A stretch of 64,000 nucleotides of DNA, taken from a virus (taxonomy: Duplodnaviria > Heunggongvirae > Uroviricota > Caudoviricetes). The stretch spans positions 165,154-229,153 of IMG/VR virus record IMGVR_UViG_3300021400_002728. The stretch is one strand, 5' to 3'. Shown here piece after piece: positions 4,993-30,495 of the stretch (position 1 is its first letter; the number at the start of each line of letters is the position of its first letter). The translations under genes and the position numbers were made by a program. The notes beneath the pieces are model-generated. The model had not been told where the DNA came from. It did not search any database and saw only the letters and a list, made by a program, of their open reading frames with translations.

Positions 4993-4995
4993 TAT

Positions 4996-6195: not shown

Positions 6196-6219
6196 TTTTC
6201 TCCTCCATACAAACAAAAT

Positions 6220-14250: not shown

Positions 14251-15273
14251 TCAATCTTTTACTTCTACTAAAGTATCAATGCTTAGAGGATTATTTTGAA
14301 TAATTATGTCAATAGGTAAGATTTTGAAGTAATCTCTATCTTTTCCCCTGACCCACACCGTGCATGCGACTTTCACCGCACACGGCGCTCCATCAAGGTT
14401 TAATTATTCTCGAGTTACGATTAAACCATTGACTTGTGTCCATTCCTACTACTCTTATTACAAGAGTTATCCACAGTTCGAACACTACTTTTCATCATTA
14501 CTAAAGAAGCTTATTATTCTTCGTCTTCACCATAAAAATATGTATAATGACTTTCCTTGTTCCATAAGATATTATCCGTACATATTAGTTTAGGTGCCTA
14601 TTATAAATATTACTAGCTAGATATAACCCGCCACATATAATGTTTCGTTATATAAGGAATTTCATAGTCCGGAATTTTACTTTTCCTCACTAATAATATT
14701 CTTCGATCATAGGTTCGTCTTACTATATTACTCACCTTGCTAATTTTATGGACGACCGGATTACTAACAACCCGACTTTAGCGAGCTTCATACATAACTC
14801 TTTACAAATTATGCATGTCGCAGTCTCATCGCTATATATTCAGAGCGTTACCTCTTCATTTATATAGTCATATCTTATAGTTCTTATACTATCATAAGGT
14901 CAATCTTTTCAATTGACAACAAGTCGCACCCGGGCAAGACTGTAGCATCATTCCTTTGAGTACAAAGTATACAATGAATGCCAGCACTTCGACCTAATTG
15001 AGTTATCGATTGGATATTACTAATTATTTCATCTTTAAGCGCGTCTTCAGCTTTACCTTCAGTAGTTTTAATACCAGATTTACCGGTCAACTCCGCAATC
15101 TCATCGACGACTATGAGTAGACGTGGCATTTCATCTGTATAGCATTTATCAACACAATTCTTATTGACTGGAATCCAATGTTCACCATCTAATTGAATTT
15201 CAAGCTCAGGTAGTTGAACTTCTACTTTAGCTTTAGCGGCTGAACCGCTATCTTGATGATCGAACCAACCCAT
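14251..15273 (-). CDS. FtsK/SpoIIIE-like ATPase middle fragment, two exons (14930-15273 and 14251-14305); 132 aa spliced
   Basis: MPRLLIVVDEIAEL Walker B, LGRSAGIH..LCTQR; splicing gives ...ATVLPGIIQNNPLSIDTLVEVKD*; no Walker A. Confidence 0.75.
14306..14929 (-). mobile_element. ORF-less group II intron (624 nt)
   Basis: 5' GTGCG; domain V GAGCGCCGTGTGCGGTGAAAGTCGCATGCACGGTGTG; ends ...TTACCTATTGACAT; shares GTAACTCGAGAA with the first intron; removal restores frame. Confidence 0.9.
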
Positions 15274-15277
15274 GAAA

Positions 15278-16108
15278 TCACTCCTTTCTTAATAAGTCAG
15301 TAAATCTATTTTTCATTTCCTGTGTAAATCTATCAAGTATTGCTAATAAGTCAGGATAAGGTGAAAGTCTATTTCTTACTTCCTGAACCATTTCTTTTGG
15401 AATAGGATAATAAGCTTCTGCCATACTTCCAGCAATACAAGTTAATGTATCGCAGTCTCCACCTAAAGAAACTGCATTTCTAATAACATCTTCAAAATCT
15501 GTACCTTCAAAGAAAGCTGTCATAGCTTGAGGTACGGTTTCTTGACAGGACTCAACATGATGATAGTCAGGTCTAATTTCATCACAAGTCTTAGATAAGT
15601 CATAACCAAAACAGTCATGAACATACTTTTTGATGAATGTTTTATCATAACCTGTTCTAGCTAAAAAAATAACTGCAGCAACTGATTCTGCACCTTTGAT
15701 ACCTTCTGGATGATTATGTGTTACTTCAGCAGTAAGTCTAGCAATATCTCTAGTTTCTTTTACTGAATTGTATAACCATCCTGCAGATGAAACTCTCATA
15801 GCTGAACCATTACCAAAACTATTATATGGTTTTGGATCATTAGATTTAAGCCACCAAGAGAATCTTGTTCCGTAGCCTTCCCAGGGATAAAGTTCGCCAT
15901 ATTTTTTCATAGACTTAATAACAGCTTCTTTAATATCCTCTGGTGACGCATGGAGCGTATCTAGGAGTGCTTCTGCAACAGCTAGAGTCATAACAGTATC
16001 ATCAGTTTTTCTGCTTGAGTCTATCCAAAATGGAAAATCTTTTCGTTTTTCACTTCTATCATATTCATATGGTGCGCCAACCATATCACCTAAAATTGCT
16101 CCGTACAT
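15278..16108 (-). CDS. ADP-ribosylglycohydrolase (DraG/ARH family)
   Basis: GAILGD, TDDT, SFGNGSAMR, THNHPEG, GGDCDT motifs. Confidence 0.9.
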   Translation of the reverse strand: MYGAILGDMVGAPYEYDRSEKRKDFPFWIDSSRKTDDTVMTLAVAEALLDTLHASPEDIKEAVIKSMKKYGELYPWEGYGTRFSWWLKSNDPKPYNSFGNGSAMRVSSAGWLYNSVKETRDIARLTAEVTHNHPEGIKGAESVAAVIFLARTGYDKTFIKKYVHDCFGYDLSKTCDEIRPDYHHVESCQETVPQAMTAFFEGTDFEDVIRNAVSLGGDCDTLTCIAGSMAEAYYPIPKEMVQEVRNRLSPYPDLLAILDRFTQEMKNRFTDLLRKE

Positions 16109-16198
16109 ATATTCACCTTCTTTTAATAAACAAAAAATGCCTGTCATTTTTCAGACAGGCATAATTTCAGCTCTACCTACACAAGGACAGGAGAGTAA

Positions 16199-16471
16199 TT
16201 AGATATTAGTCCAATGGTCACCTTCAAACTGAATCTGACCAAGTACATCTGTCTCAGTAAACTTAACACCATCAGATGTACCGATAACTACAGTTCCAAT
16301 ATTGCCTGAAATCTTAACTATAATAAAATAAGGCTCAGGATCATTTAGATCATAAATAAATGACTCCTTAGAAATGAATTTCTTTCTAGCCTCATCATAG
16401 TCAAACTCAATCGGATCAATATTGAGCTGATCAAAGTACTGTTTCATTACATCATTAATATTTGTATTCAT
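16199..16471 (-). CDS. hypothetical protein
   Basis: ORF with RBS. Confidence 0.65.
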   Translation of the reverse strand: MNTNINDVMKQYFDQLNIDPIEFDYDEARKKFISKESFIYDLNDPEPYFIIVKISGNIGTVVIGTSDGVKFTETDVLGQIQFEGDHWTNI

Positions 16472-16503
16472 TATATAATTTCCTTTCGTTTTTAATTAAA
16501 TAG

Positions 16504-18237
16504 TTATTCATTGTCATCGTCTTCAACGTCTTCTTCAGACTCATTATCAAATAAGAATCCAATCTTGTGATCTTTATCCTTACCTCTATTGTAGATTCTT
16601 GTAAGGTTTAACATACGTCTACCGTCAAAGCCTTTTTCATCACCTTCAGCATCTGCGAAAGTATAGAACTGGAAGATGAAACTTTCATCTGCATCCAATT
16701 CAATATTTGTAAGAATAGCCACACCTGAAGATACATTGAATTCTTTGATGTGAGATCTAAGCTCATCAATAAGCTCAATTGGTTTATAGAGAATAATATT
16801 ACCTCTAAGTCTACCACGTTTCTCAAAGTAGTATGTCTTATCTTTAAGAACATTTGCCTTAGATGTACCAGCAATACCTTCAAGTAATGGCTTAGTAAGT
16901 TTAGGATCTCTTGAGTTATCAATAAGAATCTCAAGAACCTCATCCCAACCTCTAACTGCTTCATAGTAGTCAGATAATTTATTTCTAGCTACATATTTAG
17001 CAATAGCCTTACGATCTTTCTCAGGCATATCATAGAAATCATAATAAATCTTAAGCATGTTAAGGATATGTTCCTTAAGTATAGTAAGATCAATAATTTC
17101 AGGGTACATATTATAGATAATGTATTTAGGTGCATCCTGCTTATATCTAACTAATGCTTTCTGAACAGTATCGAAGTAACCTAAACTTAATGCAGTATCA
17201 ATATCAATAAAAGCAGTCATAGCATCTAGACCACTAGTATTATATTCTTGATACAGTTCGTCTCTAAACTGTTTAACTTTAGAATATTCTACATAGGTCT
17301 TAACATTATTAAGGAATCTAGTCTTAATGTCATCTACTATTGCAGTTTCAGTATAGTTTTTGATAGTGATCTTATTTCTAATTTCGGTCTCAGCATTATC
17401 AAAGTATGATGCCAAATTAGTCTTATACATAGTCTTAGAACTTAACATACCAACTATGCGATCTTCAAGATTAGGTACATTAACAGATGCAATTATAGGT
17501 TCAGCATTAGCAATAAGCTGAGCTTTAGTAAGACTAGCACCATTTGGCCAAATCTGAGCCTTAATTACTCTTAACCATTTAAGTGTTTCATCTTTAACTT
17601 TCATCATTGCATCATAGTTCTTAAGATATTCTTCATGTTCTTTCTTAGCATTCTCTTCAAAATCTTTAATAAGCGAGTTATATTTTTCTTCAGAAATCAT
17701 TACACAATTACCATTTTCTACCATACCATAGAAAGTATAACCTTCATCATTTCTTACCTTACGTCTATAACATTTAACAAATGCTAAATGATTACTACCA
17801 TAATGACAATCTTTAGACCAAGTTTTCCACTCTTGTTCAAGATCTAAGGTATCAAGGAATTGCTGAGGTCTAGACCAACTGAATCTAGATCCATCCCAAA
17901 AAGATTTAATAATCTCTTCACCTTTAGCCTTAATAATAGCATCATCATTTCCATTATCTGTTTGAATGTCAATAATTTTAGTTTCTTTGCCGTCTTTACG
18001 TGTATATGGAATAAGCTTAGCAGTAACAGTAAATTCACCTTTACCAGACTTTCTAGGTACCTTGAATGTTACAGTTTTTCCTGCTACAATAGCATCAAGA
18101 TGTGCTTCAGTAAAATAACCTTTAGTCATATAGTTGTTATAAACTTCTTCAAATATTGATAAATTTTTCTTTTTTCCGTCAGTGTCGATATACTGATAAT
18201 ACCAACCATAAGGACCATGAAGTACTTTATTAGCCAT
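16504..18237 (-). CDS. large hypothetical protein; N-terminus has one topoisomerase C-terminal-repeat-like unit
   Basis: FTEAHLDAIVAGKTVTFK..RKSGK similar to repeats in 23970-24488. Confidence 0.7.
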   Translation of the reverse strand: MANKVLHGPYGWYYQYIDTDGKKKNLSIFEEVYNNYMTKGYFTEAHLDAIVAGKTVTFKVPRKSGKGEFTVTAKLIPYTRKDGKETKIIDIQTDNGNDDAIIKAKGEEIIKSFWDGSRFSWSRPQQFLDTLDLEQEWKTWSKDCHYGSNHLAFVKCYRRKVRNDEGYTFYGMVENGNCVMISEEKYNSLIKDFEENAKKEHEEYLKNYDAMMKVKDETLKWLRVIKAQIWPNGASLTKAQLIANAEPIIASVNVPNLEDRIVGMLSSKTMYKTNLASYFDNAETEIRNKITIKNYTETAIVDDIKTRFLNNVKTYVEYSKVKQFRDELYQEYNTSGLDAMTAFIDIDTALSLGYFDTVQKALVRYKQDAPKYIIYNMYPEIIDLTILKEHILNMLKIYYDFYDMPEKDRKAIAKYVARNKLSDYYEAVRGWDEVLEILIDNSRDPKLTKPLLEGIAGTSKANVLKDKTYYFEKRGRLRGNIILYKPIELIDELRSHIKEFNVSSGVAILTNIELDADESFIFQFYTFADAEGDEKGFDGRRMLNLTRIYNRGKDKDHKIGFLFDNESEEDVEDDDNE

Positions 18238-18258
18238 ATTCTACCTCCTTATCAAAAT

Positions 18259-18322
18259 AAAATGACTGATCTATAATCAGACCAGTCATTTTTCTCATTC
18301 TTACTATGTTATAATTAAATAG
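18259..18322 (-). repeat. leader element copy 2
   Basis: matches consensus. Confidence 0.85.
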
Positions 18323-18326
18323 TCTT

Positions 18327-18506
18327 TTATACTTCTACCTGTACAATAAGTACGTTATCTCTAATTTCACACCAAGATACTGTAAGATTAGACTTATCTA
18401 TTTTCTGCGATTCACCAATTTGTCCTTCATATAATACTTCATTTATAGTCTCAATACGAATTCTAGTGTCATTACTAAATGCTGCTATCATTTGTTTAAG
18501 TATCAT
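18327..18506 (-). CDS. 59-aa hypothetical protein (small paralogue family), not in ORF track
   Basis: GAGG RBS, MILKQMIAAFSNDTRIRIETINEVLYEG... Confidence 0.65.
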   Translation of the reverse strand: MILKQMIAAFSNDTRIRIETINEVLYEGQIGESQKIDKSNLTVSWCEIRDNVLIVQVEV

Positions 18507-18520
18507 AACTATTACCTCTC

Positions 18521-19324
18521 TTAATCGGCATTAAAATGATCATAGATTGCACCAAGCATAACTGGACGAATGTTCTTAAAATAGATTGCCTTGAAACAAT
18601 CATCTGGCGCCATAGATAATCCATATTCCTGTGTAACATCCTTTAAGAGATCTGAATTATCATAAAACATTGCTTTCATAATTTGTGCAGATGCTTCAAA
18701 TTTAGGCCAAACTAATTCACTTTTCTCTGGTTGATTCTTAATTAAATCTTCAAAATAGTTATTATCAAAGGTACCTTTGAAATGATCAAACTCACCTTGG
18801 AAGAAATCTAATACACTATTTTTCCAATCATCAAATGTACTTACTGCAGTATCAATATTAAGATCACTACAGATTTTTTCAATAGATTTAGAAATAGCTG
18901 CTTTATACTCTTTCATTCCTTCAGCATTAGCAGGTAATTGAAAAGCATACTTATGACCAGTACGACCTAAAAGATACTCATAACATTCATAACAATGTGA
19001 CACTGTCATATCATGATTATAACTAATATACTCAGAGATTTCCATATTATCTCTGCTCCATCCTTGTTTATTGTTACCAACTTCATCCTGAACAACTGCT
19101 TTAAGTTTTCCAGCAAACCAATGTCTAATCCATTCTTCAGATCTACCTCTAAAACCGCTATCCCATTTGTCATTGTCAATCTCAAGATCAGTTCCATTAG
19201 TCCTAGCATATTTCCAATACTTATTCATTGCAGGACTATTTTCCCACATACCATCAGATAACTGACCAATAACACCGTCAATAATTCTAGCTCTAGTTTT
19301 ATTACCTAATGAAATTATCATCAT
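18521..19324 (-). CDS. hypothetical protein
   Basis: ORF with GGAGG RBS. Confidence 0.7.
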   Translation of the reverse strand: MMIISLGNKTRARIIDGVIGQLSDGMWENSPAMNKYWKYARTNGTDLEIDNDKWDSGFRGRSEEWIRHWFAGKLKAVVQDEVGNNKQGWSRDNMEISEYISYNHDMTVSHCYECYEYLLGRTGHKYAFQLPANAEGMKEYKAAISKSIEKICSDLNIDTAVSTFDDWKNSVLDFFQGEFDHFKGTFDNNYFEDLIKNQPEKSELVWPKFEASAQIMKAMFYDNSDLLKDVTQEYGLSMAPDDCFKAIYFKNIRPVMLGAIYDHFNAD

Positions 19325-19364
19325 GATTATCTACCTCCTATAAGTAATTTTTGCATATAAAAAC

Positions 19365-19424
19365 AAAATGACTCAGTCATTAAAGACTAAGTCATTTTTC
19401 TCATCCACTATTATAATTAAATAG
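19365..19424 (-). repeat. leader element copy 3
   Basis: matches consensus. Confidence 0.85.
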
Positions 19425-19428
19425 TTCT

Positions 19429-19662
19429 TTATGTTATTGATGGCAATCCAAGTATACATTGACAAATTCCATCTCCACCATTTTTAGGATTATTTGAACA
19501 TCTTTCGCACGAGTCAGTTTTTAGTGGCTGACAACCTGCTAATACTAAATTTTCTCTACCTCTTATACCTTCAATCAACAATGATTTTTCTAAGTCAGTA
19601 AATCCATTAGAATCATTAATCTTTTTTACTAAATCTTTCCTTGTTTCTTCTATATTAATCAC
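19429..19662 (-). CDS. small Cys-rich hypothetical protein
   Basis: CERCSNNPKNGGDGICQCILG. Confidence 0.6.
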   Translation of the reverse strand: MINIEETRKDLVKKINDSNGFTDLEKSLLIEGIRGRENLVLAGCQPLKTDSCERCSNNPKNGGDGICQCILGLPSIT

Positions 19663-19675
19663 AACTATTCATCCC

Positions 19676-19747
19676 CTATGTATAATTTACTAATTTACTG
19701 TCAAGTTTCTTTTTATCCGCAATTGATCCGTATAAACCTATGCAAAT
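19676..19747 (-). pseudogene. displaced duplicate of the RuvC-like gene C-terminus
   Basis: reads ICIGLYGSIADKKKLDSKLVNYT*, colinear with ICIALFAQKVDIELLNKHKVNYT* of 20717-21262. Confidence 0.8.
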
Positions 19748-20703
19748 TACATTTGTGTATTATAGTTATTTTTCTTTTTTGTTTGCCCTTTGTGATATCC
19801 GTTATTTATATAAGTATTTAATTCATCTAAATATATAAATTTATTAGTTATACCATTAGTTATACAAATTTTTCCATAGCATGGATTATTTTTTCCAGAA
19901 ACATTAGCGTGATTTTTAGATAATTTTTGTTTTGTTTCATCTGAAACTATTCTACCTTTATTAGCTATTGATATTTTTTGTCTAGCTTCTAATGATACTT
20001 CTAAACCTTTATGTGAATTAGACATTTTTTCTCTAGTTTTAATAGATGGATGCTTATTATAATTAGGATTGTTTTTGCCTAATTTAGATATAGACTGTTT
20101 ATATTTTGTTTCTTTTGAGTGTTTTCTGCCTTTTCCAGCTATTGATAATTTTTGTTTAGTTTCATCTGATAATGTCTTACCGCGCCGCCTAGTATTTCCT
20201 AATAATGATTTAGATATTTTACTTCTAGCTTCTTCAGACATATTTTTGCATGATTTAGATATTTTTTCCTTATGTTCTTTAGATAATTTTTTACCTTTAT
20301 TAGGACTAGGCAATCCTTTATGGCTTTCTGACATACACTTTAAAGTTTTTTCAGATAAATTTTCTTTTTTATGCGCCTCTGAGCAATGTTTTTTAGCTTC
20401 AGCCGAAAATTTACTACCTTTTCTATTACCACAACTGCCACCAATAGCTAAATTATAAAAATTATCTGAATTTACTGCATCATAATACGAAATCCAGTAT
20501 ATTTCTTGTTTATCTAATTGTTCTTGTGAATTACACCATTCAATAATATCTACTTTAAAATTTTCTTTTCCATATTTTTGTATAGCCTTTATTAGTAATT
20601 TACCAGATCCAAAATACTTTTTATCAAATATTTCTGATGCGTGCTGACCTATATATTGTTTATTATTAATTAGATTAGTTATTTTATAAATATATCCATA
20701 CAT
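19747..20703 (-). CDS. GIY-YIG homing endonuclease with NUMOD3-like repeats (Seg-like)
   Basis: YIYKITNLINNKQYIGQH, YFGSG, YNLAIGG, repeated (H)S.ETK.K(L/I)S. Confidence 0.9.
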   Translation of the reverse strand: MYGYIYKITNLINNKQYIGQHASEIFDKKYFGSGKLLIKAIQKYGKENFKVDIIEWCNSQEQLDKQEIYWISYYDAVNSDNFYNLAIGGSCGNRKGSKFSAEAKKHCSEAHKKENLSEKTLKCMSESHKGLPSPNKGKKLSKEHKEKISKSCKNMSEEARSKISKSLLGNTRRRGKTLSDETKQKLSIAGKGRKHSKETKYKQSISKLGKNNPNYNKHPSIKTREKMSNSHKGLEVSLEARQKISIANKGRIVSDETKQKLSKNHANVSGKNNPCYGKICITNGITNKFIYLDELNTYINNGYHKGQTKKKNNYNTQM

Positions 20704-20716
20704 ATTTAATTTCCCA

Positions 20717-21262
20717 TTATGTATAATTAACTTTATGCTTATTTAACAGTTCAATATCAACTTTTTGTGCGAATAATGCTATGCAAATTGCGTCTGCTGT
20801 ATCGTTATCTTTAATAATTTCATCACCCTTTTTAGGATGATGTATTACTATATTCAAATCTACTTGAGGATAGTTCTTTTCCACAAAAGCAACGGCATCT
20901 TCTTTCTTTGCTGATCTATTACCTAAAACTTTACTCTTCCATGACTGAACATGGACAGCACTGATTGAAATTTTATCAGAGAACTCATTTATTAGAGTTG
21001 ATTGTAAGAATGCCATACTAACAATATTGTACATTCTAGATACACCTCTATAGAATGCAATTTCCTCAAATAGCATGTAGTCATCTTTAGTTAATTTATA
21101 CTTCTTAATATACTCATTAATTTGTTTAATGATCTTCTTTCTATGATGCCAGGCTGATTCAGAATCACTATAGTTAAGTCTACTCCATTCAAGCAACTTA
21201 TCACCTTGCATGACACAGATAGAATTACGTGTTCTATTTCCTAAATCTATGCCTATTACCAT
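20717..21262 (-). CDS. RuvC-like Holliday junction resolvase
   Basis: VIGIDLG, FEE, WK..VLG, DxADAICIA. Confidence 0.75.
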   Translation of the reverse strand: MVIGIDLGNRTRNSICVMQGDKLLEWSRLNYSDSESAWHHRKKIIKQINEYIKKYKLTKDDYMLFEEIAFYRGVSRMYNIVSMAFLQSTLINEFSDKISISAVHVQSWKSKVLGNRSAKKEDAVAFVEKNYPQVDLNIVIHHPKKGDEIIKDNDTADAICIALFAQKVDIELLNKHKVNYT

Positions 21263-21280
21263 AATAATTTCCTTTCATAA

Positions 21281-21312
21281 AAAGAGGACACTCATTTCTG
21301 AATGTCCTCTTA
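21281..21312 (-). terminator. intrinsic terminator hairpin after PhoH gene
   Basis: AAGAGGACA..TGTCCTCTT inverted repeat with T tract. Confidence 0.6.
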
Positions 21313-21316
21313 TTTG

Positions 21317-22720: not shown

Positions 22721-22735
22721 TGTACATTTCTCCTT

Positions 22736-23407
22736 TTAGATTATTTCGTCTATATCACAGTCTTCACCTACAATATAATCTGCCACTCCGACTTCTTTAG
22801 CTTTCTTTGGAAGGAAGTACCATTCAACTCTATATTTCTCATCATATAACTCGCTAGAAATCTTAGTACGGTTTATAATGTAGTTCTTGGTCATCTGTTC
22901 TAACTCGCCAAGTTCAAAATCCATTCGATCTTTCACCTTTGCAGTTGAACCAAATGCCATATTTGAACCATCATGCATTAAAAATTCTGCGTGTGGCATA
23001 GTAAATCTTTTCTGACCTGCAATAAAAATGAGAAATCCCATACTATAGCACATTGCCTGATTTATTGTATAAACAGGTGTTTTGCTAGTAAGAATTGCAT
23101 CGATTAAACCATAACCCGCACAAACATCACCGCCTGGGCTATTGATATAAAGTTTAATTGGGACTCGGTCTTCAATAGGTTTACCTTTATCTTGTCTGTT
23201 ATATCTTAAGATATGCCAAACTATAGACTCGATAATCTCTTCATCGATACCAAAGTTAATGTATAGTCGTCTACCATCAATTTCTTCAATATCAAAGGTA
23301 TCTTCTATACAAAGATTAACTACGCTTTTTGCCTCCTCTTTTTTATTTGATTTTGTTGTCGGCGTCTTAGCGCTGGCCTTGGTTGTTTTGTTTTCTGCCA
23401 TAGACAT
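22736..23407 (-). CDS. clpP: ClpP-like serine protease
   Basis: IKLYINSPGG, CYSMG (catalytic Ser), FLMH. Confidence 0.85.
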   Translation of the reverse strand: MSMAENKTTKASAKTPTTKSNKKEEAKSVVNLCIEDTFDIEEIDGRRLYINFGIDEEIIESIVWHILRYNRQDKGKPIEDRVPIKLYINSPGGDVCAGYGLIDAILTSKTPVYTINQAMCYSMGFLIFIAGQKRFTMPHAEFLMHDGSNMAFGSTAKVKDRMDFELGELEQMTKNYIINRTKISSELYDEKYRVEWYFLPKKAKEVGVADYIVGEDCDIDEII

Positions 23408-23453
23408 AAATTTCCTTTCTGGTTTTTATGTTAAATAGCTTGTGCTATAAACA

Positions 23454-23669
23454 TTACTTAATGCCATGCTCATCGAAGAAATGAATCATAAACCATTCAT
23501 GCGCATCTTCAATAATCTCTTCGTATTCCTTCTTAGTTAAATCCTCTTCAGAAATACCAAATTTATTCTCCTGTAATGCAAGTACTTCAAAGCAACAATT
23601 ACTTACTGCATTATAATATTTGGATCTAAATGTTGATTTTAATTCTTCCATCTTTTCTTCTGATAACAT
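23454..23669 (-). CDS. hypothetical protein
   Basis: ORF with GGAGG RBS. Confidence 0.65.
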   Translation of the reverse strand: MLSEEKMEELKSTFRSKYYNAVSNCCFEVLALQENKFGISEEDLTKKEYEEIIEDAHEWFMIHFFDEHGIK

Positions 23670-23681
23670 GATAATACCTCC

Positions 23682-23924
23682 TTATAAATCTAAATGAAAA
23701 TATTTAATAAGAACTTGAGTAATTCTATTCCAAGAATCTCTGTCAAGTTCTGCACCTCGTATAGTTTCACCAGTGGTACCATCAACGATATCAACATCAT
23801 CAAAGTAAAATGGATTATCAGCGTCAATTTTATCACCAAATTTTTCTAGAAATTTCTGTTTATACTTAAGTTGATCGTTATAATTAGAAATTTCATCTGA
23901 GAATATGTTTATTACGTCTTTCAT
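23682..23924 (-). CDS. hypothetical protein
   Basis: ORF with GGAGG RBS. Confidence 0.65.
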   Translation of the reverse strand: MKDVINIFSDEISNYNDQLKYKQKFLEKFGDKIDADNPFYFDDVDIVDGTTGETIRGAELDRDSWNRITQVLIKYFHLDL

Positions 23925-23969
23925 ATTGACCTCCTTTAGTGATTATCACTGATAATCCATTTTTTGTTT

Positions 23970-24488
23970 TTAACCGAAATTCGGTTTGAATCCTACAAAT
24001 TTGTTTCCATTGTATTCCTGTTCAGCTAACTTACCCTCAGCGCCATAGTAATTACCTGTTTTCTGAGACTTAGCCTGGAATTTAATAGTATCACCTGCAA
24101 GTAAATGAGCTACTTCATCATCAGTAAATCTATGCTCACTCCAAACTCTCTTTACTTTGACTTCTTTACCATTCCACATACCAGTAAATCTTTCTACATC
24201 ATCCTGCTGTGGCTTTTCGTCGAATTTAATTGCAAATCCAAGATATTCGTGAGTACTACCGTCATCTGCAGTAAATGACTGCATAGAAAGAGATCCTTTT
24301 GCTGTATAAGGTTTTCCTGCCTTTGAAACAGCTTCAAATTCAATTGTTTCACCTGCAAATAGCTTAGCAGCTTCTTCTGCTGAGAACGTATGACCTTCCC
24401 AGTGAGGATTCTTTCCCCATACTTTCTTTATACTATATGGGTTACCATCTGTCCAGGTACCATTTATTTTTTCTACTGTATCTGCCAT
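23970..24488 (-). CDS. stand-alone tandem topoisomerase-III C-terminal-repeat-like protein
   Basis: two repeats K.VW..H.F..EE...L.AG.TI.F.A.S.K.G..Y.A.G.L. Confidence 0.65.
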   Translation of the reverse strand: MADTVEKINGTWTDGNPYSIKKVWGKNPHWEGHTFSAEEAAKLFAGETIEFEAVSKAGKPYTAKGSLSMQSFTADDGSTHEYLGFAIKFDEKPQQDDVERFTGMWNGKEVKVKRVWSEHRFTDDEVAHLLAGDTIKFQAKSQKTGNYYGAEGKLAEQEYNGNKFVGFKPNFG

Positions 24489-24539
24489 AATAATTTCCTT
24501 TCTAAACTAAGTTTACTACTTATATAATTAAATAGTTCT

Positions 24540-25301
24540 TTAGTATGTTTTTGATAAACCTTCTAAGCATACCCAAAGACATCCACCTAAAAGAATAAGT
24601 GGAGCAAATGGAAGTGCAACTACTACTCCAGTAGCCACTAAAGCCCCCATTCCAACACCTTTAGCAACGTCACCAGTTTTATCTAATGCATTTCCAATAG
24701 CTTCTTTTCTAGCAGCTTTCTTAGCTTCTTTGGCTGCTTCTGCATCCTCTAACTCTTTTGCTTTTCTAGCAGCTTCAAATTCTTCTGCAAATACGAGCTT
24801 ACTAAGGTTAATATTATAAGTACTATCTGCGTTTAACTGATCTTCAAATAAATCAAAAATTCTTTGTACTCTTTGTTGATCGTGTTCTATCCAATCTCCA
24901 CCCATAGAACAATTAGACTGACTTAATACAACCTGATCTAAGTTAGAAAATTCAAATTTACCGGGTTTATCATTAGCTAAATTTTCATAGTATTCAAGTA
25001 CAGGATCTTCTGATAACTCACGTATACAATCAGGATTTCTATATACTTTGCCATTTATCATTTCCTCTTCTGGCTCATCATATCCAAATTTACCATTTTT
25101 GCATACAATATAAATAAGTAAACTTATATCATTATTACGATCTGTAGTTAAACGAAACTCCTGAACATGAAGATCAAATTCGAATTTTACAGGACCACTA
25201 CGAGTACGAGTGTCTAATGTTATATGTCTACCTTCATTATCTTCCTTAAATTTAGCTTCCATTTGAGTAACTAATTTATCAATTTGATCAAAGTTTAACA
25301 T
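24540..25301 (-). CDS. hypothetical protein with C-terminal membrane anchor
   Basis: hydrophobic C-terminus. Confidence 0.65.
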   Translation of the reverse strand: MLNFDQIDKLVTQMEAKFKEDNEGRHITLDTRTRSGPVKFEFDLHVQEFRLTTDRNNDISLLIYIVCKNGKFGYDEPEEEMINGKVYRNPDCIRELSEDPVLEYYENLANDKPGKFEFSNLDQVVLSQSNCSMGGDWIEHDQQRVQRIFDLFEDQLNADSTYNINLSKLVFAEEFEAARKAKELEDAEAAKEAKKAARKEAIGNALDKTGDVAKGVGMGALVATGVVVALPFAPLILLGGCLWVCLEGLSKTY

Positions 25302-25329
25302 AATATTCCTCCTTATTTATAATAAACAA

Positions 25330-25391
25330 AAAATAACTCATCTATTTCTAGACAAGTTATTTTTCGCATTCATTCTTATATAATTAAATAG
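25330..25391 (-). repeat. leader element copy 4 (covariant stem)
   Basis: AAATAAC..GTTATTTT. Confidence 0.8.
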
Positions 25392-25565
25392 TCTTTATTT
25401 ATCTCGTTCCTTGAAGTATCTACATGCCCTTTGCCCAAATATAGAAATATGTTTTCCAACAATATCTGAATTAAGACATACACATGTTGATGAACAATTA
25501 TACCGACAGTCTCGACAGTTCTTTGGTTTTATCGGTTTAGTTTTAACTTTCATGATTATTTACCT

Positions 25566-25820
25566 TTACATAGCATCGATAATCTTCTTATATTCGTCAT
25601 CATCTGGAACAAGATGAACTTGATTATTCCAGTCTGTAAGCCAAATAATAGATCTATCTAAGCATTCCTCTTTAGTTCTGTTTGGATTGTACTTATAAAT
25701 TAACTTAGCATACTTTTTGACATCTGAACGTCTATTTTTACAATCAGCTAAACGTTCCCAAGCAGCATAGTCATCTCTTTTAAGTTCTTCTCTCCAATCA
25801 TCATTCCAATTTTCGTCCAT
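25566..25820 (-). CDS. hypothetical protein
   Basis: ORF with GGAGG RBS. Confidence 0.65.
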   Translation of the reverse strand: MDENWNDDWREELKRDDYAAWERLADCKNRRSDVKKYAKLIYKYNPNRTKEECLDRSIIWLTDWNNQVHLVPDDDEYKKIIDAM

Positions 25821-25832
25821 ATTAATTCCTCC

Positions 25833-26255
25833 TTAATAACTTTTATTAATTATTGTATAATCTTTAGGAATAGATTGATATTCTGAATATTCTGGTGTAT
25901 TAATGTAATCTGCATCTGGATTAAATAAGAATTGAGATAATTCAGATTCACTCATATTAAATCCGAACATATAATCTTCAAATTCAAGATCTGTACCAGT
26001 GTCGTTAATTACATTGACACCTTTACTAGCTAAGTACTGTAAATATGCCGATGCATATCCATTTTCTTCAGCAAGACTATACATAAATGCCATTCTCGTT
26101 TCAATAGATGGATGACGATCTGAAATATAGTCAGTACTCATAAGCTTAGATAATTTTATTTCTGTTGGAATTTTCTGTCCTTTATTAGGTGGTAATATGA
26201 AACAGTGTGAACTAGAACTATTAGTTTCAAATAATCCATTTCTTACATTAAACAT
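25833..26255 (-). CDS. FETNSSS-motif family protein
   Basis: MFNVRNGLFETNSSSSH. Confidence 0.75.
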   Translation of the reverse strand: MFNVRNGLFETNSSSSHCFILPPNKGQKIPTEIKLSKLMSTDYISDRHPSIETRMAFMYSLAEENGYASAYLQYLASKGVNVINDTGTDLEFEDYMFGFNMSESELSQFLFNPDADYINTPEYSEYQSIPKDYTIINKSY

Positions 26256-26276
26256 ATTTAGTCTCCTTTACAAAAC

Positions 26277-26333
26277 AAATACCTAATCTTTACAGACTAG
26301 GTATTTTTCAATTCCTCTATTATAATTAAATAG
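26277..26333 (-). repeat. leader element copy 5 (covariant stem)
   Basis: AAATACC..GGTATTT. Confidence 0.8.
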
Positions 26334-26336
26334 CCA

Positions 26337-26753
26337 TTAATACTTACTTCTAATATCTTTTTTGCAATTTTCACAGATACGACCTGTTACATTTTGATAC
26401 ATTTCATTTAGATCGTGGGTAGTCTTACATGCGGTACATACTTTAGCTTCTTTAATAGCAGTATCAATAATTGTACTAAGTTGTAGATGATGTTTATTAT
26501 CTATAGTAGTAAGATAACTCTGTGCACCATATTCAGGACCGTCAAAACATACATATAAACCAATTTCAGTTCTTCCAGGTCTACATACTAATGCTATTCC
26601 ATACCATTCTTCATTTGTTTTACTCTGAAACTGTGGTATAGAAATTACAATCTGATCATCTTTTACAAAATCACATTTATAGTTGTTCAATTCAGCCAGC
26701 AAATATCTCATATCTGGGCGACTGTCTAAATCTACCATACTATCATCCTCCAT
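26337..26753 (-). CDS. hypothetical protein with C-terminal Zn finger
   Basis: CTAC...GRICENC; similar tail in 33317-33802. Confidence 0.65.
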   Translation of the reverse strand: MEDDSMVDLDSRPDMRYLLAELNNYKCDFVKDDQIVISIPQFQSKTNEEWYGIALVCRPGRTEIGLYVCFDGPEYGAQSYLTTIDNKHHLQLSTIIDTAIKEAKVCTACKTTHDLNEMYQNVTGRICENCKKDIRSKY

Positions 26754-27102
26754 TTCTTGCTATAATCCTATCATAATATTTTGATTCTCCAGCATCTTTA
26801 GTTCCAATAGTTATTTCTAGACTTACATCTGAATCAAGTCTATTTATTTTAGCTAGATAATTATAATACCTAACTATTTCATTTACTAGAGAATTTACAT
26901 CATCGTCCCAGTCTTCAGTAATCCATAACATAGCAATAACATCATCGTCATAGTGAACTGCCTCTACATGATAGTTTCGCAGATTATATGGAATGTTACA
27001 TATGTTAATAGCGTCACATCTTTCTGGTGGCATTTTGGTGTCAAATTTTGGTCCATTTACTTTTGGATCACTAAATTGACGAATAAAATCACGTGCTCTC
27101 AT
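26743..27102 (-). CDS. hypothetical protein
   Basis: overlapping-gene operon. Confidence 0.6.
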   Translation of the reverse strand: MRARDFIRQFSDPKVNGPKFDTKMPPERCDAINICNIPYNLRNYHVEAVHYDDDVIAMLWITEDWDDDVNSLVNEIVRYYNYLAKINRLDSDVSLEITIGTKDAGESKYYDRIIARNGG

Positions 27103-27424
27103 TTTGATGGACCTCCTTTGCCTTTTCCTTAAATGTTATATAGTCATACATAGTCTGTCCTATACTAGGTAATGTCATAGAACAAAATGTAGCCTTTGAA
27201 TATTCTAAAAATTCCTCTGAAAACTTAGTTCCAGAACAACACATTGATTTTATATATTTACGATTTTCCTTTGTATTTTCACGTCCAAGTAATTCAAGTG
27301 TATACTTAGTTGCAAAATACATTGGCAAACTGTTTGTATAGAAAAACATAACTAAATATGGTCGATCTAGTCCAGCAAGTAATATTATAACAAGTAGTAC
27401 GGTACACATTATAATCGACCACAT
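27089..27424 (-). CDS. hypothetical membrane protein
   Basis: hydrophobic N-terminus. Confidence 0.6.
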   Translation of the reverse strand: MWSIIMCTVLLVIILLAGLDRPYLVMFFYTNSLPMYFATKYTLELLGRENTKENRKYIKSMCCSGTKFSEEFLEYSKATFCSMTLPSIGQTMYDYITFKEKAKEVHQNEST

Positions 27425-27443
27425 TTTGACACTTCCTCTCTAT

Positions 27444-27749
27444 TTATTTTCTCGTGTCAAAGTTTATACAATCTCTTACAATTCTGTTATACAATAAACT
27501 ATCATAATTTTTAAACTCTGACCATTTGTAAGGTTTTTCATTAAATTTAGCCTTACCAGTAATATCATAATATTCTTTATCTATCTTACATATAAAATGA
27601 TTTTCTATAGGTAGATAGTATATTTCACCATTAAATCGTTCTTTCAGAATTACGGCAAAATAATAGCAGTTACCTGTTGTAAATACTTGCACAAGTTCCT
27701 GCTTATAAATAAACTTAAATTTATCAATAAATTTTTCTACATCTGTCAT
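27444..27749 (-). CDS. hypothetical protein
   Basis: G.CYYFA.IL..RF, H, YYDITG motif. Confidence 0.65.
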   Translation of the reverse strand: MTDVEKFIDKFKFIYKQELVQVFTTGNCYYFAVILKERFNGEIYYLPIENHFICKIDKEYYDITGKAKFNEKPYKWSEFKNYDSLLYNRIVRDCINFDTRK

Positions 27750-27964
27750 AGGCGCATTTCTTCCATATATATCTTAAGATAGTTTTCATTTCTAAATTCT
27801 GGCATTTCCTCCAAAACAATATTGTTCCAGACTTTCTGCCAGTCAACATTATTAGCCTCAGAAAAAATAATGTGACGAATAACAGTTTCTATAGAACCAT
27901 TGATACCACTTCGCGATAAACTAGTAGAAATAATTTCTTTAATATCCTGATTTGATAATTCCAT
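27746..27964 (-). CDS. hypothetical protein
   Basis: ORF with GGAGG RBS. Confidence 0.6.
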   Translation of the reverse strand: MELSNQDIKEIISTSLSRSGINGSIETVIRHIIFSEANNVDWQKVWNNIVLEEMPEFRNENYLKIYMEEMRL

Positions 27965-27975
27965 AATTAGCCTCC

Positions 27976-28416
27976 TTAAGGTACGCTATCTAAAAGTTGT
28001 GTAGGTGATAAGAACATTAAACAAGGAAAGTTTCGTATTACACCAAACACAATAAGTGTTACAAGAAATAAACCAATGAACCATAGAGTAAATTTTGACC
28101 ATTTACCTTTGAATATATAGAAGAAATTTTGATAAATGTAAATGAGAATTACAATTGGCCACATAATAAATACATACTGATTCCATCTAAATGCTTGAAC
28201 AAAATCATGATCGTAAAGTGCACTTTCCATAAGTCTAGTAGTACCACAACCAGGACAATTGATGTCAAAGTTCTGATGGATAGGACATTGTATTCTGTAA
28301 CCAACATGCCATTCTATGATTACAAAAGCGATACATATACAAACTATAAATATGTTTATAAGTAAGACCAGCTGGACTCTGTCCATACTGGTCTTCTCGG
28401 AGGAGGGTCTATTCAT
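27976..28416 (-). CDS. DUF2752-like membrane protein
   Basis: CP.....I.CPGCGTTR, AFRWN, FGVIRN with TM segments. Confidence 0.7.
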   Translation of the reverse strand: MNRPSSEKTSMDRVQLVLLINIFIVCICIAFVIIEWHVGYRIQCPIHQNFDINCPGCGTTRLMESALYDHDFVQAFRWNQYVFIMWPIVILIYIYQNFFYIFKGKWSKFTLWFIGLFLVTLIVFGVIRNFPCLMFLSPTQLLDSVP

Positions 28417-28429
28417 TTACTTACTTTCC

Positions 28430-28735
28430 TTAATTATTCGCATACATTCCAGCACCAGCAAGAATGATATTGTACATATACTGGAGAAGAGATACGTTGT
28501 CACCCTTGAAGTACTGGATCTTAGCGATCATCTTCTTCTGATATGCTGTAGCCTTAACATAAACATTCATGAAATTGATAAGCTGCTTCTTCTTCTCAGC
28601 CATGTTAATAGTCTCATCGAGGCAAATCTTATCAAACTGATCATGATACTCAGAAAGGGTAAAAACGATTGAACCTTCCTTTGTGCTAAGATCTACCATG
28701 TTTTTCTTTTCATTAACTTTCTTTGCCATTTTCAA
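28430..28735 (-). CDS. hypothetical protein behind sigmaA promoter
   Basis: ORF with GGAGG RBS. Confidence 0.7.
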   Translation of the reverse strand: MKMAKKVNEKKNMVDLSTKEGSIVFTLSEYHDQFDKICLDETINMAEKKKQLINFMNVYVKATAYQKKMIAKIQYFKGDNVSLLQYMYNIILAGAGMYANN

Positions 28736-28775
28736 ATACCTCCACGCATTTGTTTTTTATTTATTTTATAATTAT

Positions 28776-28804
28776 ATTATAACAAGAATCGAGGTATTTG
28801 TAAA
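28776..28804 (-). promoter_or_regulatory. sigmaA-type promoter
   Basis: TTTACA-N17-TATAAT with TG. Confidence 0.75.
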
Positions 28805-28853
28805 CAATTTTTTGAAATTTTTTCAAAAAATTTTTAATATTTTGAGATAATCA

Positions 28854-29411
28854 TTAATATTTACTATATTGAATACGCTCACCGTTTTCATAATAGTAAA
28901 CATGTGAATTTTCAAATGGTACTATTACTGTCTTTTTATACTGTTCACGTCTATCAGCATCTTGAGCATGTTCTGCAGCACCTTTAAGATGTTCGGTTAA
29001 AAACTGTTCTATGTTTTCATCATATCTATCTTGCCACTGACTATATCTACTAGAATAGTTTTTATGAAGTGTGTCAGCAACTATAGTGATAGTAAACTTA
29101 ATTACATGTTTATCTGGAAAATATGTATAATCTATATTCTCATAATCAGAAATACAATTCTGTCTAATATTACTTATATACAACCATAGATCTCTTATGA
29201 GTATATCTTCTTCAATATCTATGTCAAGGCCCTTAAATAAAAAACTTGCTTCATATTCAAGTTCTCTATTGTCGCCTTCTCCATTTCCAGTATTAGACTT
29301 AGAATCTCCAGTACTTCCAAGAGTAGCATGATTAGACAAAGCTCTATGCTCAGTTTTTCTTAAATTATTACGCATTGTATTACCTGCGCTTATAAGATGT
29401 GCTGTTCCCAT
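28854..29411 (-). CDS. hypothetical protein, MGTAHL N-terminus
   Basis: shares N-terminus with 29434-30027. Confidence 0.7.
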   Translation of the reverse strand: MGTAHLISAGNTMRNNLRKTEHRALSNHATLGSTGDSKSNTGNGEGDNRELEYEASFLFKGLDIDIEEDILIRDLWLYISNIRQNCISDYENIDYTYFPDKHVIKFTITIVADTLHKNYSSRYSQWQDRYDENIEQFLTEHLKGAAEHAQDADRREQYKKTVIVPFENSHVYYYENGERIQYSKY

Positions 29412-29433
29412 TTAAATGCCTCCATATAATGTT

Positions 29434-30027
29434 CTAACTAACTTTTCTAACAGTCTCACCATCTGTTGTAGCAAACAATTCACCCATTCTACGTCGATAT
29501 TGAACTGATTCTACATTAAGTAATTCTGGTAATTTAATTGCTATAAAATACTCAAGTCTATCCTCAAAATCTGCAAGCACCTTGTCTAATCCAAGTCGAC
29601 GACGTAATGCATTCCAATCACCTATAAAAGGTCTAGTAAAATACACACTCACTACAATAGTACTATCATCTTCATTATACTCAAATTCATTCTCATGTTG
29701 AAAGCTATAATATTCTTCTAGTGATTCATTTTCTTTATAGTCAAAATCTACAGTTGTAAAATGTTCAAGAGCACTTTCGTTTTCGAATGGCTCAGATAAA
29801 TACTTCTCTAATATTGGTTCCATTTCTTTTGCTGGAACAGATATATTTTCTAATTGATAAGACATCCTATACTCAAAGAAAAATGTTTTAGGTTCTTCTT
29901 TTTCATTTGATGATGCTCCACTAAATTTTTTAGTTGATGAACTACTAGATGAACCGCTATGATTATGATGAGTATGAGCTTTAGTTCTACCTCTACTTGC
30001 CATCATAAGTAAATGTGCTGTTCCCAT
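29434..30027 (-). CDS. hypothetical protein, MGTAHL N-terminus
   Basis: shares N-terminus with 28854-29411. Confidence 0.7.
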   Translation of the reverse strand: MGTAHLLMMASRGRTKAHTHHNHSGSSSSSSTKKFSGASSNEKEEPKTFFFEYRMSYQLENISVPAKEMEPILEKYLSEPFENESALEHFTTVDFDYKENESLEEYYSFQHENEFEYNEDDSTIVVSVYFTRPFIGDWNALRRRLGLDKVLADFEDRLEYFIAIKLPELLNVESVQYRRRMGELFATTDGETVRKVS

Positions 30028-30030
30028 TTA

Positions 30031-30495
30031 TTATACCTCCTCAAACTTCTGATCTTTACGAGAATCAATTTCGGCATGTTCACCATCAAAATCAATAACA
30101 GTAGTTGAATTCATATTATCAAGATCAATTTCACCTTCAAGTTCAACATCATCTGATACTTGTACAGATGCACCATTAAGATAACCTAAATCATCAAGAC
30201 CTCTCTGTCTAAAATAAGTCTCAGTAATCCATTTCTGTTGCTCAAAGTAATACTGAACACGTGAAATCTGACCTTGCATTTTAGTAATACCTGCACCTTT
30301 ATGAGTACCATCTACTGTTGTACCTAGTGTTGAACCAAGCGCCATCATTGAAGCTGTCTGTTCCAAACGTCCAGCTACGACCTAAATACGAGCAGCACAA
30401 TTATGGGTAAAGATCATATTCTTATCCATGGTTGTTCCACTCTTATTTAGATCACCTCCTTTACGCTTAAAAACTTTTTCTAAAATATTTAACAT
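30031..30495 (-). CDS. FtsK-like ATPase C-terminal fragment preceded by an intein-like THN|C junction; in-frame TAG at 30382-30384
   Basis: GGAGG + ATG at 30495; ...NMIFTHN|CAARI*VVAGRLEQTASMMALGS...KGAG...RVQYYF continues the FtsK fold after ...IIQNN of 14251-15273. Confidence 0.6.

What the first reader, a model, noticed from the sequence alone, without database searches (positions are those of the whole stretch)
14251..30495. FtsK-like ATPase split into distant pieces with minimal intein-like ends: possible multi-piece split intein
Seen: the spliced middle piece ends ...CTQRNDATVLPGIIQNN|PLSIDTLVEVKD*. Fifteen kb away a separately initiated ORF reads ...NMIFTHN|CAARI*VVAGRLEQTASMMALGS..KGAG, which is what the FtsK/TcpA fold is expected to contain after 'NN'. 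PLSxDTLV resembles intein block A, and THN|C is an intein block G junction; Pro1 together with Thr before His-Asn fits class 3 inteins (established). The 12-aa tail and its stop position are conserved, with many synonymous changes, in the HEG-fused duplicate, which implies selection. Neither piece carries recognisable blocks B/F, and the Walker A piece is not in the window. Inference: either a natural three-part split intein with a trans-acting core encoded elsewhere, or vestigial intein ends on subunits that assemble non-covalently. Caveat: in-frame TAG at 30382-30384.
Basis: partly seen in the sequence, partly recalled or inferred. Interest (0 to 1): 0.85.

Follow-up and report, generated by a model that had tools for sequence, protein, structure and literature searches.

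The report
Natural three-piece split intein candidate
A giant phage encodes one motor-like protein as two genes 15 kb apart, and the self-splicing element (intein) expected to rejoin them is itself split into three genes: two tiny tags and a free-standing catalytic core, a layout described so far only for laboratory-made inteins.

Summary
The window lies in a 394-kb jumbo phage.

- **The break.** An FtsK-like "half" protein is cut exactly at IIQNN|CAARI. Homologues show every state at this one site: no intein (P0034), a contiguous class 3 mini-intein (P0065), two-piece splits at either end (P0068, P0193), and this form.
- **The tags.** The 12-residue tail PLSIDTLVEVKD is intein block A. The NMIFTHN leader is block G.
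- **The core.** The predicted missing core exists, 43 kb away and outside the window (genome 238533-238889, minus strand). It is a free-standing 118-residue gene with blocks B and F only. It has the class 3 Trp and Cys. It has a HINT fold closest to solved class 3 DnaB inteins.
- **Conservation.** It is kept as the same short ORF in three related phages. All three parts are under strong purifying selection.

Corrections:
- This protein family natively has no Walker A piece.
- The HEG-fused duplicate tail is a homing scar, not proof of selection.
- The in-frame TAG is real. It marks a conserved, variable insertion five codons into the C-extein, and how it is decoded is unresolved.

Splicing itself is untested. 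The scan reported the same layout earlier on other DNA (e1-5635508, e1-5635523). I found no paper describing a natural example.

The parts
14930..15273 (-). Exon 1 of the FtsK-like 'half' protein (N-extein). It has its own RBS and ATG, Walker B (LLIVVDEIAEL) and sensor (CTQR).
   Evidence: PF01580 scores 21 bits, below its 24-bit cut-off. phrog_1358, FtsK/SpoIIIE-like, matches the orthologue at 2.5e-16.
14306..14929 (-). ORF-less group II intron of 624 nt interrupting the gene after ...VLPG.
   Evidence: RF02004 scores 93 bits and RF00029 scores 60 bits. Intron-less orthologues fix the exon junction. No reverse transcriptase is found in the genome.
14290..14305 (-). Start of exon 2: the last residues of the N-extein, (G)IIQNN.
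   Evidence: IQNN is invariant in alignment A3.
14251..14289 (-). N-tag: intein block A, PLSIDTLVEVKD (12 aa), plus the stop codon.
   Evidence: It aligns to residues 1-10 of the contiguous intein of P0065. The same tag leads into the core in P0193 and P0206. The amino acids are identical in G003 despite pS of 0.73.
13169..14236 (-). Free-standing homing endonuclease gene. Its last 15 codons (13172-13216) are a diverged duplicate of QNN plus the N-tag.
   Evidence: phrog_3339, homing endonuclease, 2.3e-43. Pfam DUF7487. At least 10 paralogues in the genome. Paralogues end at ...YGAGKL, so the tail is foreign to the endonuclease.
30400..30495 (-). C-tag: a variable basic leader followed by intein block G, NMIFTHN (30420-30400). 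AGGAGG lies 7 nt upstream of the ATG.
   Evidence: It aligns to the last strand of the inteins in P0065 and P0068. IFTHN is conserved across 9 lineages.
30382..30399 (-). First five C-extein codons, CAARI (+1 Cys and the likely arginine finger), followed by the in-frame TAG at 30384-30382.
   Evidence: Across the nine codons IFTHNCxAR, pS is 0.50 and pN is 0.02 in the 8 interrupted lineages.
30031..30381 (-). Remainder of the C-extein (VVAGRLEQTASMMALGS...KFEEV*).
   Evidence: It is contiguous with the N-extein in P0034. Over its first 30 codons from GRLE, pS is 0.60 and pN is 0.10.

Best explanation
**What it is.** The window holds two of the three parts of a naturally three-piece class 3 intein. 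The intein sits at the IQNN|C site of a phage FtsK-like 'half' ATPase. That protein has Walker B, a sensor motif and an arginine finger, and natively has no Walker A.

**The three parts.**
- Part 1: the N-extein gene (15273-14251, spliced at RNA level by a group II intron) ends in a 12-residue block A tag.
- Part 2: a free-standing 118-residue gene outside the window (genome 238533-238889, minus strand) encodes only the HINT core. It carries block B (S-x-x-H-x-W) and block F with the class 3 nucleophile Cys.
- Part 3: the gene at 30495 starts with a basic leader and block G (FTHN), then the +1 Cys of the C-extein.

**Proposed mechanism (inferred, not shown).**
- The two tags supply the first and last beta-strands of the HINT fold around the core.
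- The core Cys attacks the Asn-Pro bond and carries the N-extein as a thioester.
- The +1 Cys takes the N-extein over.
- The block G Asn cyclises.
- An S-to-N shift yields ...IIQNN-CAARI...
- Because the first nucleophile lies on the core and is regenerated, the core could turn over like a ligase.

**The TAG.** In this phage a TAG five codons into the C-extein means one of two things. Either only CAARI is ligated and the rest is made separately, or the stop is read through.
For: **Homologues show every state of one intein at one site.**
- No intein: P0034.
- Contiguous: P0065.
- Split after block A: P0068, P0190, P0195.
- Split before block G: P0193, P0206.
- Split at both points: this genome.

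**The core.**
- The free core matches residues 10-127 of the 154-residue intein fragment of P0068 at E=5e-21, and the P0065 intein at 4e-10.
- A profile of the cores hits solved class 3 DnaB inteins 6rix, 6riy and 6bs8 at E=2e-8, covering residues 16-133 of 145.
- The AlphaFold model (mean pLDDT 85) has those same structures as top Foldseek hits, TM 0.68-0.72.
- The core is a short ORF (open frame 123-125 aa) with the same ends in three relatives, at 89, 77 and 64% identity.
- About 15 further clusters of free cores, 115-156 aa long, exist in metagenomes.

**Selection.**
- Core: pN/pS 0.08-0.22 at pS 0.63-0.69.
- Tail: identical amino acids at pS 0.73.
- Block G plus CAAR: pN 0.02 against pS 0.50.

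**Catalytic residues are all present and conserved.**
- Block B Ser, His and Trp; block F Cys; block G Thr-His-Asn; +1 Cys.
- This matches the WCT definition of class 3 (PMC7891396, PMC7664689).

**Precedent.** The split points equal the engineered S1 (11-12 aa) and S11 (about 6 aa) sites, which work in the laboratory (PMC3620165).
Against: - No experiment shows splicing.
- The C-extein ORF is broken by TAG after five residues. I found no canonical start codon between the TAG and the conserved VAGR codons, and no good RBS for the downstream part.
- General intein HMMs (TIGR01445, TIGR01443, PF14890) found none of the parts.
- Engineered three-piece inteins are often inefficient.
- The three genes lie 15 and 43 kb apart, with no evidence of co-expression.
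- The genome holds a second C-tag and a second free core, so pairings rest on homology only.
Confidence: 0.6

Rival explanations
1. The intein is catalytically retired. The tags and the core survive as a non-covalent clamp that holds the two ATPase pieces together, or they perform only a cleavage step that removes the tags, without ligation.
For: The ORF break after CAARI in at least 8 lineages suggests that covalent joining of the whole C-terminal part is dispensable. Strong conservation of tags and core would also be expected for a binding module.
Against: A mere clamp would not need the nucleophile Cys, block B His, block G Asn and +1 Cys. Yet these are invariant across cores only 31-37% identical and across all tags seen. 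Contiguous and two-piece forms of the same intein must splice for the host protein to exist.
Confidence: 0.25
2. The pieces are decaying debris of an intein-containing gene shattered by homing endonucleases and rearrangements, and have no present function.
For: The genome is riddled with endonuclease genes and introns. There is an in-frame stop. Other FtsK-like paralogues exist.
Against: All parts keep intact ORFs with the same ends in four genomes whose synonymous sites are near saturation, and pN/pS is 0.02-0.2. No intact copy of this paralogue exists to relieve selection.
Confidence: 0.08
3. The pieces are joined at the RNA or DNA level (trans-splicing of group II intron halves, or a programmed rearrangement), and the intein-like ends are incidental.
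For: A group II intron lies 5 codons upstream of the break.
Against: That intron is complete and cis-spliced, with both exons adjacent. Only two group II domain V/VI matches exist in the genome, and both belong to complete introns. Each piece has its own start, stop and RBS. The gene order is core, C piece, N piece.
Confidence: 0.02

Closest known systems
Engineered three-piece split inteins (Ssp and Rma DnaB, Npu DnaE, gp41-1; bioRxiv 10.1101/2023.01.30.526203; S1 and S11 sites, PMC3620165)
   Same: An N fragment of about 12 residues, a C fragment that is essentially the last strand, and a middle piece without exteins. The break points correspond to the S1 and S11 sites.
   Different: Those are man-made class 1 inteins whose first nucleophile sits on the N fragment. 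This one is natural and class 3, so the nucleophile sits on the free core. The preprint states that natural inteins are so far known as one gene or two.
AceL NrdHF, the first reported naturally split class 3 intein (PMC7891396)
   Same: Class 3 chemistry (internal Cys, Thr-His-Asn end), a phage or metagenomic origin, and trans-splicing from separate genes.
   Different: That intein has two pieces, each fused to an extein. Its model is only a weak structural match here (6zgq, rank 48). The closest solved relatives are the mycobacterial DnaB class 3 inteins.
Atypical natural split inteins with short N fragments, and 'fractured genes' with free-standing endonuclease genes (Dassa et al. 2009, PMC2677866)
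   Same: A very short N fragment, a host gene broken at the intein, and Vsr-like or other free-standing endonuclease genes next to the pieces. Homologues P0068, P0190 and P0195 have exactly this two-piece form.
   Different: Here a second break removes block G from the large fragment, leaving it with no extein. The pieces are 15 and 43 kb apart rather than flanking one endonuclease gene.
Mycobacterial DnaB class 3 mini-inteins (PDB 6bs8, 6rix)
   Same: The best sequence-profile match and the best fold match to the core. The same Cys-His-Thr triad and Trp are present.
   Different: Those are contiguous inteins of 139-146 residues inside DnaB. The core here corresponds to residues 16-133 only.

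Membership tests
Intein, class 3 | HINT fold | tested here: met
   The core model has mean pLDDT 85. Its top Foldseek hits are class 3 DnaB inteins, TM 0.68-0.72, E about 1e-6. The profile hit has E=2e-8.
Intein, class 3 | No Ser or Cys at intein position 1 | tested here: met
   Pro follows IQNN in the window and in the contiguous intein of P0065.
Intein, class 3 | WCT triplet: Trp at block B:12, Cys at block F:4, Thr at block G:5 (PMC7891396) | tested here: met
   The core has SNVHQW and VVMCITT. The leader has FTHN. The triplet is spread over two genes.
Intein, class 3 | C-terminal His-Asn followed by a +1 Cys, Ser or Thr | tested here: met
   HN|C lies at 30405-30397 and is conserved in 9 lineages.
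Intein, class 3 | Inserted at a conserved host site, with intein-free homologues joining the same residues | tested here: met
   P0034 reads VIQNN|CQQRF with no intein.
Intein, class 3 | Protein splicing activity | not testable with these tools
   This needs co-expression and mass spectrometry.
Natural (two-piece) split intein | The intein is divided into two fragments, each fused to an extein | tested here: not met
   There are three genes. The 118-aa core has its own RBS, start and stop and no extein.
Fractured gene (Dassa 2009) | The two gene halves adjoin with an endonuclease gene between them | tested here: not met
   An endonuclease gene abuts the N piece (14236-13169), but the C piece lies 15 kb upstream and the core 43 kb further.
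FtsK/SpoIIIE ATPase | Walker A P-loop | tested here: not met
   No P-loop occurs in any homologue of this protein. All start at MGWFD-like residues. PF01580 scores below its cut-off.
FtsK/SpoIIIE ATPase | Walker B, sensor TQR and an arginine-finger strand | tested here: met
   LLIVVDE, CTQR and CAARI are present. phrog_1358 covers residues 45-181 of the contiguous P0034.
Group II intron | Domains I-IV and V/VI, and GUGYG...AY boundaries | tested here: met
   RF02004 and RF00029 score above their gathering thresholds. The boundaries are GTGCG and AT. Intron-less orthologues fix the junction.

The most novel reading that the evidence does not exclude
The free core is a true multi-turnover protein ligase, not a single-use intein. 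It recognises a 12-residue N-tag and an 8-residue C-tag, holds the N-extein as an acyl-enzyme on its own Cys, and is regenerated. In this lineage its natural job may be to weld only a five-residue peptide (CAARI, carrying the arginine finger) onto an ATPase subunit. That would be a post-translational 'arming' step. It may also act on other tagged proteins, for example the endonuclease that carries a second copy of the N-tag.
Probability: 0.25. Interest if true: 0.93.

Novelty: new variant of a known kind. Interest (0 to 1): 0.85.

Why it matters
Inteins are described as one gene or two. A natural three-gene intein would show that evolution reached the minimal-tag design that protein engineers built by hand.

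Because this one is class 3, the catalytic Cys sits on the extein-free core. The core may therefore behave as an enzyme that ligates proteins through tags of about 12 and 8 residues. That would be attractive as a sortase-like tool.

Homologues provide a complete natural series at one site: no intein, contiguous, split at either point, and split at both. This makes the origin of split inteins directly testable.

It also links this window to the orphan core noted elsewhere in the same genome.

Tried and rejected
**Complex prediction.** I ran complex prediction on the G001 trio: N-extein end plus tag, C-tag plus extein start, and core. It gave no verdict. The score was 0.52, but 0.43 when the C-tag chain was replaced. 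It counts neither for nor against binding.

**General intein HMMs.** TIGR01445, TIGR01443 and PF14890 run on the genome found none of the parts. Pfam gave the core only a sub-threshold Hom_end_hint hit.

**Stop-codon recoding.** TAG ends 42 of 445 long ORFs and TAA ends 332, so the genome uses the standard code.

**Suppressor tRNA.** The phage has a tRNA with anticodon UUA. A DNA search did not find it in the three relatives. That empty result proves nothing, so read-through stays open.

**Ribosome hop over the TAG.** Matching take-off and landing codons exist in G003 and L028 (ATT..ATC), L030 (ATT..ATT), G002 (GTA..GTA) and L031 (CGA..CGA). They do not exist in the window (ATT..GTC) or in L029. 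I did not adopt this reading.

**A missing Walker A piece.** I searched for one. I rejected the idea because the family natively lacks it.

**A two-piece split intein in the paralogue at 268 kb.** I first read its MSVV...VFHN|SGKS start this way. I did not follow it up.

**Phage database.** DNA searches found no close record.
Full report
**Context.** The window is bases 165154-229153 of a 394,266-bp virus record with terminal repeats. It is 32% G+C and almost every gene is on the minus strand. Genome coordinate equals window coordinate plus 165153. The genome carries 39 tRNA genes, at least ten paralogous homing-endonuclease genes, group I-like introns, and exactly two ORF-less group II introns, both in the window.

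**The observation.** The middle piece starts at its own ATG (15273) behind an AAGGAG.
- It runs to ...VLPG, where a 624-nt group II intron begins (14929-14306, GTGCG...AT).
- It resumes at 14305 and ends IIQNNPLSIDTLVEVKD-stop at 14251.
- Two relatives have the same gene with no intron and read straight across the junction.

The second ORF starts at 30495 behind AGGAGG. It reads a basic leader, NMIFTHN, CAARI, TAG (30384-30382), then VVAGRLEQTASMMALGS... to 30031.

The endonuclease ORF 14236-13169 ends with a diverged copy of QNN plus the tail.

**The two pieces are one protein, cut at an intein site.** A search for longer relatives of the middle piece and of the C piece returned a complete series.
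- **No intein.** P0034 and four others of 241-246 aa are contiguous and read ...VIQNN|CQQRFVCGRLGSVASMMALG....
- **Contiguous intein.** P0065 has, at exactly that point, a 176-residue insert. It begins PLSINT, contains ...SRCIAV..., and ends ILTRN before CQFRVVCGR.
- **Split after block A.** P0068, P0190 and P0195 are C pieces that begin with a 120-154-residue intein body ending (V/I)(L/F)T(H/K)N|C.
- **Split before block G.** P0193 and P0206 are N pieces whose tail PLSLDT... runs on through the whole body and stops just before block G.

So the 12-residue tail and the FTHN leader are genuine intein ends. Both break points occur singly in nature.

**No Walker A piece is missing.** All homologues begin near MGWFD with no P-loop. 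In locus L015 the contiguous 246-aa gene follows a complete 675-aa FtsK gene. The paralogues in this genome are different proteins. These are a multi-exon FtsK at about 264-269 kb and a complete 221-aa one at 387.8 kb (E of 0.004 or worse).

**The missing core exists.** I searched all open frames of the genome with the intein bodies of the homologues. This found one ORF at genome 238889-238536 (stop codon 238535-238533), minus strand, 118 aa. It matches residues 10-127 of the 154-residue intein fragment of P0068 at E=5e-21, and the P0065 intein at 4e-10.
- It has an AAGGAAAGG ahead of its ATG.
- It starts just after block A (MKKTIADVQVGD...).
- It carries block B (KCSNVHQW) and block F (VVMCITTDAPDHQF).
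- It stops five residues later, before block G.
- Alignment A2 places it on residues about 17-143 of the contiguous intein.
- A profile of A2 hits the solved class 3 DnaB inteins 6rix, 6riy and 6bs8 at E=2e-8, over residues 16-133 of 145.
- The AlphaFold model (mean pLDDT 85) has those same structures as its best matches, TM 0.68-0.72.

The class 3 signature defined in PMC7891396 and PMC7664689 is complete but distributed. Trp and Cys are on the core. Thr-His-Asn and the +1 Cys are on the C piece. Pro replaces a nucleophile at position 1.

**Conservation.** The three relatives in IMG/VR (290, 332 and 467 kb) each have all three parts.
- The core is 77, 89 and 64% identical to ours.
- In each relative it lies in an open frame of 123-125 codons, so the truncated ends are conserved.
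- Gene order and spacing differ between genomes. In G001 the order is core, C piece, N piece within 12 kb. In G002 the C piece is 60 kb beyond the N piece.

Selection measures:
- Core: pN/pS is 0.08-0.22 at pS 0.63-0.69.
- The 17-codon end of the N piece has identical amino acids in G000 and G003 at pS 0.73.
- The nine codons IFTHNCxAR give pN 0.02 against pS 0.50 among eight lineages.

An exhaustive profile-free search with the core found about 15 further 50%-identity clusters of free-standing cores, 115-156 aa long. Their block F Cys is invariant, and all stop before block G.

**Mechanism (inferred).** The split points coincide with the S1 site (11-12 residues) and the S11 site (about 6 residues). 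These sites give active two-piece and three-piece inteins in the laboratory (PMC3620165; 10.1101/2023.01.30.526203). I propose the following steps.
- The tags dock as the first and last strands of the fold.
- The core Cys takes the N-extein as a thioester.
- The +1 Cys accepts it.
- The Asn cyclises.
- The result is ...IIQNN-CAARI...

In class 3 chemistry the core emerges unchanged, so turnover is conceivable. None of this is shown. The one complex prediction gave no verdict.

**The TAG.** It is real and old. After CAAR(I/M/V) there is a short, variable insertion:

| Lineage | Insertion after CAAR(I/M/V) |
|---|---|
| G001 and many metagenomic proteins | none |
| Window | TAGGTC |
| G003, L028 | TAGATC |
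| L029 | TAGCCTAGC |
| L030 | TAG plus 15 nt |
| L032 | TAGTG, creating a GTG start that overlaps the stop |
| L031 | 24 nt with TAA, followed by the native ATG |
| G002 | 13 nt, shifting the frame |

Both sides stay under purifying selection, including the VAGR codons directly after the stop.
- In L031 and L032 the C-extein is clearly two ORFs.
- In the window I see no canonical start before TTG at 30366 and no good RBS.
- Either the stop is read through (the phage has a tRNA with anticodon UUA), or only CAARI is ligated.
- I cannot decide between these.

**The duplicate tail.** Paralogous endonucleases end at ...YGAGKL, so the 15 extra residues are host-gene sequence. Synonymous divergence from the real tail is as high as between genomes (pS 0.70). 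This fits a homing event that brought in a replacement gene end from another lineage and left the old end fused to the endonuclease. It is not independent evidence of selection.

**Pairing.** The genome also has several related features:
- a second free core at 302709-303314;
- a second C-tag, METAKRGLISHN|S, at 231.3 kb;
- a contiguous intein in the ORF at 318671-319975.

Earlier first-reader notes on neighbouring windows paired the 238.5-kb core with METAKRGLISHN|S (e1-5692666, e1-5692652). Homology argues otherwise.
- Cores of this type are fused to (I/V)(F/L)T(H/K/R)N|C and to NN|PLSxDT in P0065, P0068, P0190, P0193, P0195 and P0206.
- ISHN resembles the end of the other intein type, DFISHN in P0001.
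- The cognate tags of the 238.5-kb core are therefore most likely the two in this window.

**Novelty.** Hoffmann et al. 2020 found no split form among 1701 class 3 inteins and reported one two-piece case (PMC7891396). Weis et al. 2023 state that natural inteins are encoded by one gene or two. My text searches found no natural three-piece intein. The scan itself reported the same layout on another genome (e1-5635508, e1-5635523), so this is a further, independent instance with the added homologue series.

Noticed in passing
window 3163-6216 (-): A second ORF-less group II intron (about 4310-4930) sits just upstream of the Walker A of a VirB4/TraC-like ATPase gene (3163-4293). Upstream lie a frameshifted homing-endonuclease gene (5255-6037 and 4996-5277) and a short ORF (6034-6216) with a degenerate duplicate of the P-loop region. 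The relative G001 has the gene uninterrupted (L014:17028-18164).
   Followed up: partly
genome 114279-114350 (-), outside the window: A tRNA with anticodon UUA (ochre/amber suppressor type) lies among the 39 tRNA genes, although TAA is the main stop codon. A DNA search did not find it in three relatives.
   Followed up: partly
genome 302709-303314 (-) and 231246-231335 (-), outside the window: There is a second free-standing HINT core, ending CFCISTDTGRYET, related to the intein that relatives carry at RNDA|T of the middle piece. There is also a second minimal C-tag, METAKRGLISHN|S, followed by FtsK-like sequence. Together they probably form a second three-piece system.
   Followed up: partly
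genome 318671-319975 (-), outside the window: A membrane ATPase ORF carries a contiguous intein that starts PLGLNT, has block F VRCFMI, and ends YIYQ before TGGGK. The terminal residue is Gln rather than Asn. The ORF stops soon afterwards, next to another endonuclease gene.
   Followed up: no
genome 264384-268676 (-), outside the window: An FtsK-like paralogue is broken by group I-like introns and two endonuclease genes. Its first exon ORF reads MSVV...DGSVFHN|SGKSV, which could be a 41-residue split-intein C fragment inside the P-loop.
   Followed up: no
P0001, P0005 and P0053 (relatives of the middle piece): Relatives carry other class 3-like mini-inteins in the same gene. One lies at RNDA|(T/S), four codons from the window's group II intron site. 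Another lies at ILA|...|TQR and starts PLSLDT. This 25-codon stretch is a hot spot for three kinds of mobile element.
   Followed up: partly
L009:10001-12330 (relative G002): The middle-piece gene appears to be cut into four exons (...SITQ / LGRSSGIHCILCTQR / NDASVIPG / IIQNNPLSLDTLVEVKN) by three intervening sequences within about 40 codons. The last is at the same position as the window's intron.
   Followed up: no
L007:9104-9997 (relative G003): An endonuclease gene inserted at the 5' end of the middle-piece gene begins MGWFD, a duplicate of the host gene's start. This mirrors the 3' duplicate in the window.
   Followed up: no
L014:14812-15189 (relative G001): A 125-aa P-loop ORF directly follows the middle piece. 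It is weakly similar to the N-terminal half of the 221-aa FtsK-like protein of this genome (E=5e-4) and is absent from this genome. It could be a separate Walker A partner.
   Followed up: no
window 15278-16147 (-) and 12365-13129 (-): An ADP-ribosylglycohydrolase gene (PF03747, 3.5e-35) sits directly upstream of the middle piece. A CoiA-like nuclease gene sits downstream of the endonuclease.
   Followed up: no
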